In this document: positions 34,490-42,680 of the stretch, in pieces
How the letters are laid out: each line of letters opens with the position of its first letter
How positions within the stretch are numbered: the stretch's first letter is position 1
NCBI GenBank assembly: GCA_951406725.2
Contig: OX597823.1
Coordinates: 107,384,001 to 107,448,000, forward strand
DNA: 64,000 nt
From: Octopus vulgaris
Lineage: Eukaryota
Direction of reading: 5' to 3'
Made by a program: the position numbers and the translations under genes
The notes under the pieces: generated by a model
What the model saw: only the letters and a program-made list of their open reading frames with translations
What the model was told of the DNA's origin: nothing
Database searches by the model: none

Positions 34490-37235
34490 ACTCTCTCTCT
34501 CTCTTTCTCTCTCAGACTCACACACCTATAATGTATGTAAGCAGTTTTTGTTCATTTGGGTCTCTTCGAAGATTTTCTCAATAATTTCGGTGAAAATTCT
34601 TAGATTCTTAGTTTTTGTTATTTGTGAACAGATTTCTTAGCTATACACAAGTATTTTGATACACAATGTTCTCAAGATTTTATTCTATTGCCTATTGTAA
34701 AATCAAGCAAATAATTGATTATAACAATTCTTTCGTTATAATTACTAGTTGGTCAGTTATTTGTAAAGTTATTAAATGGCAGGTCAATGGCATATCAAAG
34801 CAAAATTCTCTCTAACTATATACGAAGTCTTTACTAAAATGTTAATAACTTCATTTAACACACACACATGTATATGCACATATGTGCATATACACTTATA
34901 CGTATTAAGAGATACACATACACATTCTTACACATACAGACAAAAAAAACAAGACACACACACATAGATATATATGCACATACTATATATACATCTGTGT
35001 GTGTGTTCTTCCACGAACTTTGTTATTGTGAACATGGATCTTTTCAGTTTCGCTCACAGATTTTTTAATTATTTTTTTTAACTAAACAGTTTGAAAATTC
35101 CTCTTATGCGCCCTTCTATTACCTCCTATTACTCTATCCATCTTTTCTCCAGATAGTGTCGTCTGCTTTCTTCCCTTTGGATTTTTACCTGTAATTTCTT
35201 CATGGTCAGTTGATAATGCACGGTGTATTACATTTTTATTTTATCGTGAGATTTCCTTTTACCTTTTTTCGTTCTATCACCTCAGTATTACGTATACATA
35301 TATACTCATACTCGGCGCGCGTATAGACAAACGTATATCCCACCCACATTCGCGCGCAGGTATTTTTAAAGCAGGTGTCTGCATTTTTTGTTCATGGAAT
35401 ATATGCACCATGTTAGTCCATCTTAAAATTATATTTCATTATTGAAAACGATTTTAGAAGATTTGTTTTTAGTAGCTCTCAAAATTTTATTTTCTTCTAA
35501 TATGATAAATCAATGTCTAGTTTTATTGGTAAATCTTACTTTAATGGCAGTTCATAGTAAAATTTATATTTCATGCACATCCTTATTTAGTATGAACGTT
35601 TTATAAAATATCAAATCCTAAATTGTTTTAAAGTTCTGCTCATATTGTTTCATAGCACGTATATACATTTATATAGTGACACGGATACACAAAAACCCTA
35701 AGCAGATGTATGTATGAACGTATATAAGTATGGCTGTATAATTTCTATGTATTGTAAGTACGTGTGTAGGTGTGTGTGTGGAGTTTGTGCTATTCGCCAT
35801 TTGATAAAAATATTTTTTCAGTCAAAACAGTTACCTCTCCCTTAATGTATTACTTTACACGGCGTGCGTAACGTTTTCTCTTGGTGTATCAATTGGTAAA
35901 AGTCTTTTCTCTGCCCTCAAACTATACGATGTATCTTTCCATTCGCGTCTCGCCAGTTTCAACATATCTCTTGCTCGAAACCGATTTGCAATGCGAATGT
36001 GTGTGCTCTCGTGTGTACATATGTGAGTGTGTGTGTATCTGTGAAGGTGTGTGTGTGTTAGTCTGCATATGTGTGTGTGTGTTTGTCTGCATATATGTGT
36101 GTGTGTGTGCATGTGTGTGCGTAAGGCTTCTCTTACATAATGAATTGCCTTTCTATCTCTCTTCATCTCCCACTCCCTCATATTTTTCCTCTTTTAAAAA
36201 TTAAAACTTCCCTTTTTTACATTTTCAACGTCCGCTTACTCTCTCTCTCTTTTATTATCTCTCTCACTCACTCTCTCTCTTTCTCTCTCTCTCTTTCGTA
36301 ATATGTGTATATTTCCTGCAACTACAAATACAGGCTCTAGAAATCTATCTGCGCCTGTGTATGTGAATGTGTGTGCTTGTGGGTTTGTGTGGGCACGTGT
36401 GTGTGTGTGTGTGTGTCTGTGTGTGTGTGCGTGCGCGCTCTGTTTGGATATTTTGAGATGCTAAAATGTTGAGGTCAGGGATAGGCCGCCCACATAATTT
36501 GGATTTTCTCCGTTTACACGGGAATTTTTCGGATTTTTTTTCACGGTGCCCTTGGAAATGACGCGTTGGGGGGAATCTTTTTACCAAAAGCAATTCTCGA
36601 AAATGGTCAATGGGCACTACGCACTTAAAAACCAGGGGAGAAACCTTTTCGTTACATAAAAAAAAACAATTCAACCCCATATTCATGAATTTGTTTCTCT
36701 CAGGATGATACATGGAATATTTTTCTTTTTTTCTTTTCTTTTAACGAAAATGTTTCTCCCCTCGTTTTTAAGTGTGCAGTGCACACAAAATCGACCAAAA
36801 ATCGTTCCGAGATGAGGGTTAAAAAAAATCATCATATCCCTGACGTCCCCCAACTTAGAAATGAAACTATAAGAAAATCTATATTACCTTTCTTTTCAAC
36901 GGATATATTTTGAGGTGTAAAGGACCACTTTATCAAATATTATATTTAAATTAATTGAGTCATTAGTGTATGAGTGATTTGAAGATTTTGTTTTATCTAG
37001 GAGCTCCGGAATCTTAAAGCGATTCCTGTGTTGTACAGGACAACAGAACTTCAGCTGCGAAGTTTGCCGAAAATCTATTCAATGCTTCACATGGCGAATT
37101 GGCCAGAACAGAACTAGAAATGCTATTCTAGATCAGAGTTTAAAGACAATGATATACGCATATACGTGTGTGTGTATACATACATCCATTCACGTATACA
37201 TGTAAATACATACTACATATATATGTATATATGTG

Positions 37236-37273
<38 letters not shown>

Positions 37274-37547
37274 TGTACGTATGTATATATATATAAATAT
37301 ATAACTACACACACATATACTTACTCTTTTACTTGTTTCAGTCAGTTGACTGCGGTCATACAGGAGCAATACACACACTTCAGTAATTCTCGTAGTATAA
37401 ACGTGAGACTTTGTGACATTGAAATTGGCAATAAAGTGACATATATATATATATAAAATATTATTAGAGACAAAACCACTATTTTGCAAAACAAACAAGG
37501 AAAGACTTAATCAATACATAACATTTTAATAAATAGTCAAAAAACCG

Positions 37548-37590
37548 CCACTACAATTGTTTCTTGTCTTGATCGACAATCTTCAGGTGG
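37548..37590 (-). ncRNA. Minimal type I hammerhead ribozyme, intact
   Basis: Exact reverse complement of 37651-37693. Confidence 0.85.
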
Positions 37591-37650
37591 ACTTCCAATA
37601 AGTCAGTTTCAAATTATGAAGTCATAATTTTAAACTGACTTATTGGAAGT

Positions 37651-37693
37651 CCACCTGAAGATTGTCGATCAAGACAAGAAACAATTGTAGTGG
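37651..37693 (+). ncRNA. Minimal type I hammerhead ribozyme, intact
   Basis: ccac-CTGAAGA-ttgtc-gatcaa-gacaa-GAAAC-aatt-GTA-gtgg; stems I and II fully paired, minimal stem III with a palindromic loop. Confidence 0.87.
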
Positions 37694-37870
37694 CGGTTTT
37701 TTTGACTATTTATTAACATTTTATGTATTGATTAAGTCTTTCCTTGTTTGTTTTGCAAAATAGTGGTTTTGTCTCTAATAATATTTTATAATATTTTACT
37801 ATAAAATTGGATTTAATCCTAAATCTGATTTTTTTTCCCTGTAAATTTGGATTTATTCCCTAATATTTAT

Positions 37871-37941
<71 letters not shown>

Positions 37942-38676
37942 GTACATTGTATTGGGAAAAATAATAGGAAGAAATATATGTTCCTAAATATTTTCCTCAT
38001 AATAGAACGATAAATATTAAGACTCACTTGATTTAGCACAAAATAATATTGAGGATTTTTTCTTAAGTGTAAATATGTTTTGAAATAATTGAAATTTGGT
38101 TATTTTCGTTGTATTTATATTTTAAGGACGTCAACACGGAAAATAACGCACTGCCTTGTTTATCCATCAAACATTTCATAATTTCAAAATGGTTTCCTAA
38201 GATGTTTTTTATTTACATGGTGCCCAATATGCTCAGAATTTGATTATCCTGTATTGTGACAGACCACGGTGAAACGGCCAGTTTTTAATTCCGTGTTCTT
38301 ACGTATATCCAGTTACTTCATGGCCTTTCACATATCCAACGCTTTACAAAACATTAAACTGAAATTTGTCCTTAAGTTGGACTCATACTGTTTCACAAGC
38401 ATGTATATATACATTTATGCTACTAAAAGTTGACACTGATACTTAAAAAACTAAATGCGTGTGTTTATGGGTAAAGTATATATGTATGTAAGCATGTAGT
38501 TATGATTGCATGAGTGTTACGTATATATGTACATACGGATGCACGTATGCGTATATAAAACTTTCGCACTTGTTACACGGTGTCTCTCCTATGTACAAGC
38601 TTATTTCAAATTGGTTTAAAAGATTTTTTTTCCAGTCAAAACACCGTTGTGTATCGCCCTGAATTTATACAATCAA

Positions 38677-39057
38677 CTAGCAGCATCGCCCGGTGTTGCT
38701 CGGGTTTGTTTCGGCCCTTTAGAATTGGAATTTTTGAAAAGTAATAATTTTGCATTATATAGCTTGTTATTCTCTTTAAGTGAACATTTTTCTGGCTGAA
38801 ATACACCGAAATATGGCCACACAGCAGTCACAAAATCGTAAAAAATAGGGATTTTCATAGAAAAAAAAGCACCTTTTGATGTAAATAATTTTTGGTGCTA
38901 ACATGGTCCGATTTGAATTTTTCCGTTTATGAAAGGAAGAGCAAGTCTTCTATCATATTCTCAATTTTGGTCAACTTCTACCGCAGGGTCTCGGAGGAGA
39001 TAGTGGCTACCAAACCTGCCATACACAGACAACATCAGCTTTATATAGAGAGAGAGA
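38677..39057 (-). mobile_element. Non-autonomous Helitron-like element
   Basis: Minus strand A|TCTCTCTCTCTATATAAAG ... cccgagcaacaccggg hairpin ... CTAG|T. Confidence 0.72.
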
Positions 39058-39488
39058 TATCTTGTCGTATGTATCTCTTCAGCTTCATTGTATCTCTCTC
39101 CACCACCTCCGCCACCACTACCAACACCCTCTCTTTCTCTCACCCACCCCGTCTCTCTCTCTCTCCCTCTCTCTCTCTCTCGTTGCCTTTCTAAACAGTA
39201 AGGTCATTGCCAAGCGTGTGTATGTGTGTGCCTCTATGTGTGTGTGTGTATGTTGTGTTGTGAGTGAGCGCATGTATGTGTCTGTGTGTGTGTGCGTGTG
39301 CATGCATATGTGTAGCGTTTGTCGTATTCAATAAGTTGCTTCTTTCTCTTACCCTCTCTTCATCTCCCTCCCCCTCCCTTATAAAGTTCTCCACTTTTAA
39401 AACTTAAAACTTCGCTTCTTTTTCTTCTTCCAGCGTCCTTGTTTCCTTTTCTTTTTATTACTCTCTCTCTCTCTCTCTCGCTTTCTTT

Positions 39489-39519
<31 letters not shown>

Positions 39520-40138
39520 CTTTCGTAATATATGCATATTTCTCTCTCATTTCGTCTTAATCTCCCCGCTCTTACCTCCTCCCACTACTCTTCCTCCATC
39601 TCCCTCCAGATAGTGTCGTCTGCTTTCAGTCAGCGTTTCCAACATGGCTTTTTTTCATGGCCAAATTGGTATTGCATGATGTCATATAAATTTTAGCCCA
39701 TGATCTTATCAATTAATGTAAATCACCTTCGAAGACTTCCTTAAAGTATGAATATAAAAATACCCAAATTTCGAAACTTACAAAAAATATCTGCACTCAA
39801 GAAGGAAGCATCTAGACTATTCTCAAGATATTTAACCATTTTGCGTTAAATCATGTAAGTTTTTATATTCATCATTCTATTATATAAGGAAAACATCCAT
39901 GAACACCTTATATTTCTCAGTTCAATGTATTTAGAAAATATGTAACAATAATGTCATATTTAATGAATCTAGGTGTATATATACATACATACACATACAC
40001 TCTCTTAATTATGGACTCCTTTCTAAATCTCAAATCAAAATTTGTATTTAAGTTGCTCTCATATTGTTTCATGTAGCATTTGTATACATTTATGTTTATA
40101 TGCATTCACATGGATACTTAAAAAAACCCCAAAGGACT

Positions 40139-40515
40139 CCGAAAATTCATATCAGGAGTGTTCCGAGCCCTCTCACCACTTCTCCGTTAGCCGGCGCAAT
40201 TTTTTTCTTCATATTCGTTCACTACACATTATTTTACACCTAGTACACTATGTGTTTATCAAATTTTGTGAAGTTAGATGGGTAGGGCACAGACTCGGAT
40301 AATTCACAAAGATCCAGTTACCCGACCTCGACACCAGGACAACAACAACAAAAATTAAATGAATAAAAAGTGCAATAGGCGTAAAATAATGTGTACTAAA
40401 TGATTATGAAAAAATGCGTGCTGGCGAACAGAGGTGGTGTGAGGACAGGACTTGGAAAATTCACAGGATCCGAAAACTCAACGTTAACACCCGGCCACAA
40501 AAATGAAGCAAAAAT
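40139..40515 (+). repeat. Recent direct duplication of about 380 bp (second copy 45231-45610)
   Basis: ccgaaaattcatatcaggagtgttccgagccctctc...cacaaaaatgaagcaaaaata is nearly identical at both positions. Confidence 0.9.
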
Positions 40516-40752
40516 AGTCTGGTGGTGGTGGTCGTGGTGGGGTTGCATCTGTGTGCGTATGTGCGGAGTGAGCTCATGTGTGTGCATGTGGGTGCGTAAG
40601 GCTTCTCTTACATAATGAATTGCTTCTTTCTATCTCTCCTCATCTCCCACTCCCTTATAAATTTTTCCTCTTTTAAAAATTAAAACTTCCCTTTTTACAT
40701 TTTCAGCGTCCGCTTACTCTCTCTTTTATTATATCTCTCTCTCTCACACACA

Positions 40753-40804
<52 letters not shown>

Positions 40805-41044
40805 TTATCTCTCTTTCGTAATATGTGCATATTTCTCTCTCATTTCCTCTTAATCTCCCTGCTCTTACCTCCTCCTACTACTCAGTCCATCTTCCTCCTC
40901 ATAGTGTCGTCTGCTTTCTTCCATTTCCCTATACTTCCTTCATGGCCAATTGCTATTGCATGTATTTTATTTTACCTCAAGATTTATCAATTCATGTAAA
41001 TCACCTTCGAAGACGTCCTTGAAATATAAATTCAACAAAAATAA

Positions 41045-41293
41045 CCAAATTTCAATTATTTCACAACATATTTACACTTAAGAAAAGAATCCTCAATACA
41101 TTTGATCATATTGTGCTAAATCAAGTAAGTCTCAATATTTATCGTTTTATTTATAAGGAAAACATTTAGGAACATATATTTCTTCCTATTATTTTTTCCC
41201 AATCCAATGTACTTAATTATATATATATATATATGTCACTTTATTGCCAATTTCAATGTCACAAAGTCTCACGTTTATACTACGAGAATTACT

Positions 41294-41349
<56 letters not shown>

Positions 41350-41525
41350 GCTCCAGCATGGCCGCAGTCAACTGACTGAAACAAGTAAATGAGAAAGTAT
41401 ATGTGTGTGTATTTATATATTTATATATATATATATACATACGTACACACACACACATATATATATGTAGTATGTATTTACATGTATATGTAAATGGATG
41501 TATGTATACACACACACGTATATGC
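41045..41525 (-). repeat. Inverted paralog of about 37150-38085 lacking the 37455-37872 insert
   Basis: 41235-41294 is the reverse complement of 37381-37440; 41164-41217 is the reverse complement of about 37937-37990. Confidence 0.9.
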
Positions 41526-41653
41526 GTGTGTGTACATATATATATGTACATATATATGTATATACGTATTCCTTTATGTGTACATACAACATTGGCGAAA
41601 TACTACTCGGTATTTCTTCTATGCTTTAGCTTATTAAAAATTGGTTACAGATT

Positions 41654-42072
41654 CTCTCTTACTCTCTTACTCTCTTACTTGTTTCAGTCATTTGACTGCG
41701 GCCATGCTGGAGCACCGCCTTTAATCGAGGAACTCGACCCCGGGACTTATTCTTTGTAAGCCCAGTACTTATTCTATCGGTCTCTTTTTGCCGAACCGCT
41801 AAGTAACGGGGACATAAACAAACCAGCATCGGTTGTCAAGCAATGCTAAGGGACAAACACAGACACACAAACACACACACGCATATATATATATATATAC
41901 ATATATACGACGGGCTTCTTTCAGTTTCCGTCTACCAAATCCACTCACAAGGCTTTGGTCGGCCCGAGGCTATAGTAGAAGACACTTGCCCAAGGTGCCA
42001 CGCAGTGGGACTGAACCCGGAACCATGTAGTTGATAGACAAGCTGCTTACTACACAGCCACTCCTGCGCCTA
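41654..42072 (-). mobile_element. SINE family A, full length
   Basis: Closely matches 26161-26580. Confidence 0.92.
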
Positions 42073-42680
42073 TGATATTTTTTTTTGACCCCGTCAAAAC
42101 TCTGTGTTATCCCTCCCTTAAACTTCACATATATATATGTTTCCGTATCTGTCTCCTCGGTTTAAATGTATCACTATCTTGTTACTTTTCGCGCACGCGA
42201 GAGTGACGTTCCTCGTGCATAATGAATTGCTTCTTTCTCTTTCTCACCCTCTTTTAAAACTTAAAACTTCCCTTCTTACATTTTCATTGTCCTCTTACTC
42301 TCTCTCTCTTTTAATATCTCTCCCCCCTCTCTCTCTCTCTGTTTTTCTCCCACACTCTCTCTCCCTCTCCCTCTCCCTCTATCACTTTTTCATAATATAT
42401 GCACATTTCTCTCTCACTTCATCTCACCCGCCCCTTACCCCCTCCTCCTACTCTCTCATCTTTCCCTCAGATGGTGTCGTCTGCTTTCTTCCAGTCAGAT
42501 TTTTTTTAGTTTCTTCATGGCCAGTTGCTAAGACATGCTTAATATACAAATGTAACATAAATACCAATATTTCAATAATTTCAAAAAATATTTATAGTTA
42601 TTAAAAAACATCCGGACTATTCTCAAGCTTATATATTTGCGTTGCGTTGAACAAGTAAGTCTTTATATATTTATGGTTCT

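What the first reader, a model, noticed from the sequence alone, without database searches (positions are those of the whole stretch)
37381..41294. Filled versus empty site: the double-HHR palindrome inserted into a (TA)n tract
Seen: about 37150-38085 and 41045-41525 are inverted paralogs. In the 41 kb copy the two unique flanks are joined by a plain (TA)n run (41218-41234). In the 37 kb copy the same flanks enclose a short (TA)n, an approximately 420-bp element and a longer (TA)n (37873-37938). Inference: the element is mobile, targets TA microsatellites, inserted after the duplication, and may lengthen the tract.
Basis: partly seen in the sequence, partly recalled or inferred. Interest (0 to 1): 0.85.

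Follow-up and report, generated by a model that had tools for sequence, protein, structure and literature searches.

The report
Spliced Penelope leader copied head-to-head
A 418-base palindrome sits in a TA repeat that is empty in two related copies of the site; it matches the spliced front end of a Penelope-like retrotransposon and was likely copied twice from one RNA, which gives a way to test how these elements insert.

Summary
Observation confirmed. The 37-kb and 41-kb copies share flanks (5.3% apart); 497 bp separate the flanks in one, 18 bp of (TA)n in the other. A third paralog is also empty, a fourth holds a different insert, and the element is about 1% from its parent, so it is a later insertion. 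It is not a MITE. It is the spliced 5' leader of a Hydra-clade Penelope-like element (PLE): initiator, 22-nt exon, 1.8-kb GT-AG intron removed, hammerhead, 83-nt tail. Parents with the intron and an 838-aa RT/GIY-YIG-type frame are in the genome. Spliced and unspliced arms are equally common (472 vs 463 exact matches), never mixed within one insertion (0 of 45 pairs), and either arm can reach further 5'. Best reading: both target strands prime reverse transcription at two internal sites of one sense RNA, and the cDNAs join at the RNA 5' end. TA targeting, inverted arms, tail and hammerhead are known PLE traits. Abundant intron-less leader palindromes were not found in the papers searched. Tract lengthening is real at this site (+61 bp), but its cause, ribozyme activity and polymorphism are untested.

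The parts
37156..37441 (+). Left flank shared with paralogs (microsatellites, a SINE-like piece, 61-bp unique stretch)
37442..37455 (.). Left (TA)7; last 4 bases also fit the end of the tailless arm
37456..37623 (-). Tailless inverted arm: spliced leader from the inferred start site (A at 37622) to the first inferred priming site (about +172)
37548..37590 (-). Type I hammerhead motif, minus-strand copy
37595..37606 (-). Exon-exon junction (between 37600 and 37599); the parent has an 1818-bp GT-AG intron here
37614..37627 (.). Head-to-head joint of the two arms at the initiator, 1-2 nt microhomology; varies between copies
37622..37790 (+). Forward arm: spliced leader from +3 to +172; exon junction between 37641 and 37642
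37651..37693 (+). Type I hammerhead motif (4-bp helix I, CUGAAGA core, 4-5-bp helix II, GAAA, 2-bp helix III with palindromic loop; predicted cut after 37689)
37791..37873 (+). 83-nt tail on one arm only, with a stem-loop at 37803-37832; ends at the second inferred priming site; in the parent it runs on to the ORF
37874..37938 (.). Right (TA)n, 65 bp
37939..38132 (+). Right flank shared with three paralogs
41012..41215 (-). Paralog of the right flank
41218..41234 (.). Empty site, (TA)8
41235..41527 (-). Paralog of the left flank

Best explanation
The 418-bp insert is two head-to-head copies of the intron-less 5' leader of a Hydra-type Penelope-like retrotransposon, and it was likely made when the element's enzyme cut both strands of a TA repeat and primed reverse transcription twice on one spliced RNA. 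Shown: filled and empty sites; the parent (initiator-like motif, 22-nt exon, 1.8-kb GT-AG intron, hammerhead, tail, 838-aa frame, second repeat, TA); exact loss of the intron in the short copies; two fixed outer ends; variable centre. Inferred: transcription starts at the initiator A; each cut target strand primes at an internal U/A-rich site (+172 and about +254, the gap being the tail); both cDNAs run to the RNA 5' end and join there by 0-5 nt of microhomology. The hammerhead is likely not cut in the template. Extra TA comes from slippage during or after insertion (not resolved).
For: Paralogs: 2 empty, 1 other insert, 1 filled. Age: element 2-3 substitutions from parents vs 4.6-5.7% flank divergence. 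Parent: L248 and relatives; 8 frames of 838-852 aa at 98-100% identity without a stop in the matched part. Hydra motifs met. Splicing: precise GT-AG removal, 472 spliced vs 463 unspliced exact matches; one copy uses a donor 4 nt further on (L024); spliced and unspliced forms share the same diagnostic variants and both forms occur in sister subfamilies. Fixed ends: inverted arm at one position in 62 of 82, within 7 nt in all. 5' wall: 92 of 94 copies have an arm reaching to within -1..+8 of the initiator A, 1 passes it, 1 stops at +49 (sample chosen by a pattern starting at +4). One template: arms agree at diagnostic sites in 63 of 64 and 53 of 53 copies vs 40 and 42 expected; 0 of 45 inverted pairs mix spliced and unspliced. 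Two primings: the tailless arm reaches further 5' in 29 of 82 copies, the tail arm in 47, equal in 6. Uncut template: 18 of 19 arms spanning the cut site keep the motif. In vitro precedent: both strands cut and extended, two internal start sites (PMC11167929).
Against: Pfam finds neither RVT_1 nor GIY-YIG in the parent frame, and BLASTP to a Neptune-like frame gives E 0.11; the assignment rests on motifs, on likeness by eye to published Hydra proteins and on a homolog profile that scores two Neptune-like frames at 1e-17 to 1e-19. No tree with published Hydra sequences was built. No RNA evidence for the start site or for splicing. The tail (83 nt) is twice the usual 30-40 bp. Three spliced copies (L036, L289, L312) carry 27-300 bp upstream of the initiator, so not all spliced templates start there. 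Arm concordance could partly come from gene conversion. 12 of 94 tail-bearing copies had no inverted arm called by the script, and 10 further loci were set aside as tailless. Hammerhead helices are invariant, so covariation does not exceed shuffles.
Confidence: 0.85

Rival explanations
1. Same parent, other route to the palindrome: one cDNA folds back and primes on itself, or an antisense RNA self-primes (the model raised in PMC3846280).
For: Explains why both arms carry the same variants and splice state and the short palindromic joints.
Against: A fold-back copy cannot be longer than the strand it copies, yet the tailless arm reaches further 5' than the tail arm in 29 of 82 copies, by 10 nt or more in 12. 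An antisense template would keep the intron; half the arms lack it. Later deletions at the hairpin centre could blur the first argument.
Confidence: 0.2
2. The short element is an independent non-autonomous family or retrozyme that lost the intron once and multiplies from intron-less masters.
For: Three spliced copies keep upstream sequence and could be transcribed; hundreds of near-identical copies.
Against: Spliced copies come in the same variant combinations as unspliced parents, also in sister subfamilies; 45 different centre joints among 82 show the palindrome is built anew each time; no head-to-tail arrays of the short unit among the loci read.
Confidence: 0.1
3. The element was ancestral in all paralogs and was lost from the others by recombination between its TA tracts.
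For: TA on both sides would allow a clean loss.
Against: Needs 2-3 losses; the element is far younger than the flank divergence; the empty tracts are both 17-18 bp.
Confidence: 0.03
4. It is a MITE or fold-back DNA transposon with TA target duplication.
For: Short, non-coding, long inverted repeats, TA flanks.
Against: Ends are not symmetric (83-nt tail on one side), the centre differs from copy to copy, an intron is removed, and the parent encodes an RT-type frame.
Confidence: 0.02
5. Assembly artefact (fold-back read).
For: Near-perfect palindromes can arise from chimeric long reads.
Against: Arms differ at 4 places; the same build recurs at 82 loci; contigs of public runs X1 and X2 show the arm end at 37790 running into TA.
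Confidence: 0.01

Closest known systems
Hydra clade of C-terminal EN+ Penelope-like elements (Craig et al. 2021, PMC8557442), incl. Hydra-1_Obim from Octopus bimaculoides
   Same: DKT for DKG, no GxKF/Y, CxCx5C linker, CxxC and CxH in the endonuclease, hammerhead, (TA)n target; conserved blocks match Hydra-1_Obim by eye.
   Different: A different family (other hammerhead sequence). Hydra-1_Obim is listed as 2507 bp with 'no pLTR'; this one has a 6-kb unit with a pLTR over 2 kb, a 1.8-kb intron, an 83-nt tail and an Asn-rich insert. RWK reads RIKWK.
Penelope of Drosophila virilis (PMC2377424, PMC4209133, PMC3846280)
   Same: Start site in the pLTR, intron in the 5' leader that ends just before hammerhead helix I, partial tandems with an inverted arm, one-sided tail.
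   Different: 75-bp intron and 34-bp tail; those papers stress intron retention in genomic copies. Here intron-less leader copies are as common as intron-bearing arms.
PAc, Poseidon of Anolis carolinensis (PMC11167929)
   Same: Both target strands cut and extended, two internal start sites define the tail, uncut RNA is the main template.
   Different: There the start sites lie in the ORF and are not homologous to the target; here they lie upstream of the ORF in U/A runs that could pair with TA.
Non-LTR retrozymes (bioRxiv 10.64898/2026.07.22.740005)
   Same: Short, non-coding, type I hammerhead, derived from PLE pLTRs.
   Different: Retrozymes are head-to-tail arrays with hammerheads on one strand; this is a single head-to-head pair.

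Membership tests
EN+ Penelope-like element (parent) | Single ORF with RT and C-terminal GIY-YIG endonuclease | tested here: met
   838-aa frame with RT motifs (IDIDNYY, MGAPDS, YRDD) and VVY..YIG; homolog profile links it to Neptune-like frames. Pfam RVT_1 and GIY-YIG do not score.
EN+ Penelope-like element (parent) | Partial tandem forming pLTRs, with an inverted 5'-truncated copy | tested here: met
   L247/L248, L336, L339, L342/L343
EN+ Penelope-like element (parent) | One-sided tail of 30-40 bp | tested here: met
   Tail present on one arm, but 83 nt long
EN+ Penelope-like element (parent) | Type I hammerhead motif in the pLTR | tested here: met
   Core and helices conserved in 12 variants; covariation not above shuffles
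EN+ Penelope-like element (parent) | Spliceosomal intron in the 5' leader | tested here: met
   GT-AG, 1818 bp in L248; 20 of 20 stretches (18 loci) with a donor have the acceptor 1.5-3.4 kb on; RNA splicing itself not observed
Hydra clade | DKT for DKG; GxKF/Y absent; CxCx5C linker; CxxC and CxH in EN | tested here: met
   DKT 128, CTCRDKSNC 689, CYLC 795, CRH 824, no GxKF/Y (definition)
Hydra clade | RWK motif | tested here: inconclusive
   Reads RIKWK at 41-45
Hydra clade | Insertion into (TA)n | tested here: met
Hydra clade | Phylogenetic placement with published Hydra RTs | not tested
   Published sequences were seen only as text in a supplement
Hammerhead ribozyme | Self-cleavage (as dimer or protein-assisted) | not testable with these tools
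   Monomer fold is not the energy minimum; 18 of 19 inserted arms are uncut
Non-LTR retrozyme | Head-to-tail tandem units, each with a hammerhead | tested here: not met
   Single head-to-head pair; no array of the short unit in the loci read
MITE | Symmetric terminal inverted repeats, fixed body, transposase partner | tested here: not met
   One-sided tail, 45 centre types, RT-type parent

The most novel reading that the evidence does not exclude
This family splits its RNAs by fate: unspliced read-through RNA gives full-length and long copies (14 of 14 ORF-bearing copies that keep the junction have the intron), while the spliced mRNA is primed at its 5' leader and gives only short dead-end hairpins. 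Each insertion records two cDNAs made on one sense RNA. That would explain PLE intron retention without an antisense template and would scatter hundreds of 170-bp perfect hairpins through a cephalopod genome.
Probability: 0.5. Interest if true: 0.7.

Novelty: new variant of a known kind. Interest (0 to 1): 0.52.

Why it matters
How PLEs make inverted repeats and keep introns is stated as open in PMC3846280 (antisense self-priming or unspliced sense RNA) and PMC8557442. This family supplies hundreds of young insertions with a built-in splice marker, two fixed priming sites and intact parents, so the question can be scored in the genome and tested in vitro. It also warns annotators that such copies look like MITEs. 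The filled/empty pair itself is an ordinary insertion into a known target.

Tried and rejected
Rfam found no hammerhead, only hairpin-driven miRNA matches below threshold. MAFFT misaligned the pair; a pairwise aligner was used. A Pfam GIY-YIG search returned Neptune-like families, not the parent; unit matches in L090 and L074 were nested insertions. The first long copy read (L142) had no ORF; the parent was found through head-to-tail copies. First guess Nematis was dropped for Hydra after the motif test. No solved structure matched. Genotyping the site in other samples failed: the contigs are cut at the TA tracts; they do show the 37-kb right flank in all four runs. No RNA holder on record was listed; expression and splicing in RNA remain open. 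Tract lengthening: pure TA runs beside copies have medians of 10 and 13 units vs 6 for window runs (length-weighted mean 20), which target choice could explain. In one search, 12 of 84 copies returned 'empty' matches; 7 were self or chance matches and were dropped; besides this site, 4 sit in a SINE tract, with filled lengths 144, 146, 105 and 73 bp vs empty medians 61, 78, 65 and 65: suggestive only. 12 of 122 tail junctions have 4 or more TAT units vs 2 in the parent (3 is explained by target phase). G before the initiator A in 22 of 40 arms (parent has C; a few duplicates) may reflect a cap but is confounded by microhomology. Earlier findings: nothing returned.

Full report
Observation. The window lies on contig C10 of a 2.8-Gb genome in 227 contigs; the nearest named homologs of the parent protein are from Argonauta and Octopus, so the host is inferred to be an octopus. 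A pairwise alignment shows 37156-38132 (+) and 41012-41527 (-) to be collinear apart from microsatellite lengths and one block. Between the shared flanks lie 497 bp in the 37-kb copy and 18 bp in the 41-kb copy. The block is (TA)7, a 418-bp element (37456-37873) and 65 bp of TA. The element is a 170-bp inverted pair plus an 83-nt single tail, folding at z -41. Each arm holds a type I hammerhead motif, on opposite strands.

Direction of change. The right flank has four paralogs in the genome. C10:9.5 Mb is empty (17 bp), the 41-kb copy is empty, and C28 holds an unrelated 531-bp insert in the same tract. Flank divergences are 3.8-5.7%. The window arms differ from intact parents by 2-3 substitutions in 172-251 bp. 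Insertion after the copies split is the simple reading; loss needs 2-3 events and an element that stayed young. Some differences of the 37-kb flank may be private to this assembly, since contigs of four other runs show the other letter at 37990 and 37998, so the flank age is somewhat overstated.

Family. A search with one arm and the tail gave 1246 candidates, the best 40 at 97-100%; a 28-mer of the tail end has 3709 exact matches across subfamilies. Of 118 loci given to the script, 94 distinct tail-bearing copies remained after duplicates; 11 rows (10 loci) were set aside as tailless. 82 of 94 have an inverted arm. Its outer end is at one position in 62 and within 7 nt in all. The tail end runs into TA in all 94. 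The centre varies: 45 joint types among 82, mostly with 1-5 nt overlap. In 92 of 94, an arm reaches to within -1..+8 of the A of an initiator-like TCACTT motif; one copy passes it. The sample was chosen by sequence starting at +4, so the wall at 0 is informative but the low rate of truncation is not. Two tailless spliced copies also carry 140-300 bp upstream.

Parent. One of 30 tail loci taken in genome order (L120) had the same 3' part behind a different upstream sequence. Such long copies carry the short element's first 22 nt, then GTAAGT, about 1.8 kb, and AG before the hammerhead exon. All 20 stretches fetched at such donors (18 loci) have the matching acceptor. The window element is the exact exon-exon join. 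L024 uses a donor 4 nt further on. Head-to-tail copies (L248, L191, L253) show the whole unit: leader, intron, hammerhead, tail, an 838-aa frame, 3' region, a second repeat, then TA. Eight frames of 838-852 aa at 98-100% identity have no stop in the matched part. The protein has DKT, CxCx5C, CxxC and CxH, no GxKF/Y, and RIKWK for RWK, the Hydra-clade set of PMC8557442 (section read). Against: Pfam scores neither RT nor GIY-YIG, and no tree was made.

Mechanism. Genome-wide exact counts give 472 spliced and 463 unspliced arms (patterns of 24-25 and 21-22 letters). Among the places listed for C1-C3 (72 of the 100 spliced rows, to match the span of the 100 unspliced rows), inverted pairs were 18 spliced-spliced, 27 unspliced-unspliced and 0 mixed. 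Arms of one copy agree at two diagnostic sites in 63 of 64 and 53 of 53 cases, against 40 and 42 for random pairing. So both arms come from one template, or one was converted by the other. The tailless arm reaches further 5' in 29 of 82 copies, which a fold-back of the tail-primed cDNA does not give. I therefore infer two primings on one sense RNA, one from each cut strand, at +172 and about +254, with the cDNAs joined at the RNA 5' end. PMC11167929 (parts 1-2 of 4 read) shows both-strand cutting and two internal start sites in vitro for a lizard PLE. All 14 ORF-bearing copies that keep the junction, of 20 examined, have the intron, and none of the 94 spliced copies runs into the ORF; the spliced RNA seems to yield leader copies only. 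18 of 19 arms that span the hammerhead cut site keep the motif, so the template was uncut. The helix III loop is palindromic (AATT, GATC or the wobble form GATT in 10 of 12 variants), as for dimer-type hammerheads (PMC4209133, parts 1-2 read), but covariation does not exceed shuffles. A transcript through the window element would form one long hairpin that hides the motif.

Tract length. Here TA grew from 17-18 to 79 bp. A target duplication could at most double it, so slippage took part, during priming or later. Family-wide tests were suggestive only.

What is known. TA targeting, inverted arms, the tail, the hammerhead and a leader intron ending at helix I are described (PMC8557442 passages, section 11 and supplement rows; PMC4209133; PMC3846280 passages; PMC2377424 passages). 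Hydra-1_Obim is a different family without a defined pLTR. An octopus repeat survey lists recently active Penelope families but has no occurrence of hammerhead or Hydra (PMC13282606 passages); its supplements were not read. PMC12910113 passages and the retrozyme preprint (part 1 and passages; supplements closed) added nothing on spliced copies. Nine searches found no report of abundant intron-less leader palindromes. Arkhipova 2003 and 2006, Evgen'ev 2005 and Repbase were not seen and may hold such cases. The terms initiator, MITE, Helitron ends and cap-derived G are applied from recalled knowledge.

Verdict. It is a new family and a new kind of by-product of a known clade. Interest 0.52, for the handle it gives on PLE integration and intron retention.

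Noticed in passing
L066 (G000:C28:19734095 region): The paralogous TA tract holds a different 531-bp insert with Helitron-like ends (recalled pattern: 5' TC, 3' hairpin plus CTAG), present twice nearby; the same end motif occurs at window 38677-38690. The tract was hit twice independently.
   Followed up: partly
L127-L136 (e.g. G000:C16:20834500-20841500): A young Neptune-like PLE family with many intact 781-aa RT/GIY-YIG frames, an upstream frame of up to 479 aa, direct pLTRs and TA flanks; no hammerhead found by my crude scan.
   Followed up: partly
L137 1800-4980: Another Neptune-like PLE with the same build: TA, inverted arm with hammerhead, truncated ORF, hammerhead, TA.
   Followed up: partly
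L142 571-9688; L185/L186: Giant inverted repeats of this family: 4-kb arms at 99.6% identity, elements up to 14.6 kb, with the promoter-donor block repeated 2-4 times at 1.74-kb spacing.
   Followed up: partly
L248 ORF residues 490-610: Asn-rich stretch (48 of 120 residues) between RT and endonuclease, like the N-rich inserts described in rotifer Penelope elements (PMC3846280).
   Followed up: no
L097-L126, L149-L151: At least five sister subfamilies share the tail but differ in hammerhead helix II; several occur both spliced and unspliced.
   Followed up: partly
L268: One ORF-bearing copy begins at the predicted hammerhead cut site.
   Followed up: no
window 35139-35222, 36102-36308, 39293-39760, 40577-41038, 42203-42537: Five diverged copies of a 300-500-bp repeat; the 41-kb paralog runs into one of them while the 37-kb copy breaks off at 38132.
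   Followed up: no
window 41660-42070: Near-complete copy of an abundant SINE-like repeat whose internal TA tract is a target of this family elsewhere.
   Followed up: partly
L109/L110 (C1:8.40 and 8.77 Mb): Two near-identical 10-kb stretches with the same PLE insertion: recent duplication or unpurged haplotype.
   Followed up: no
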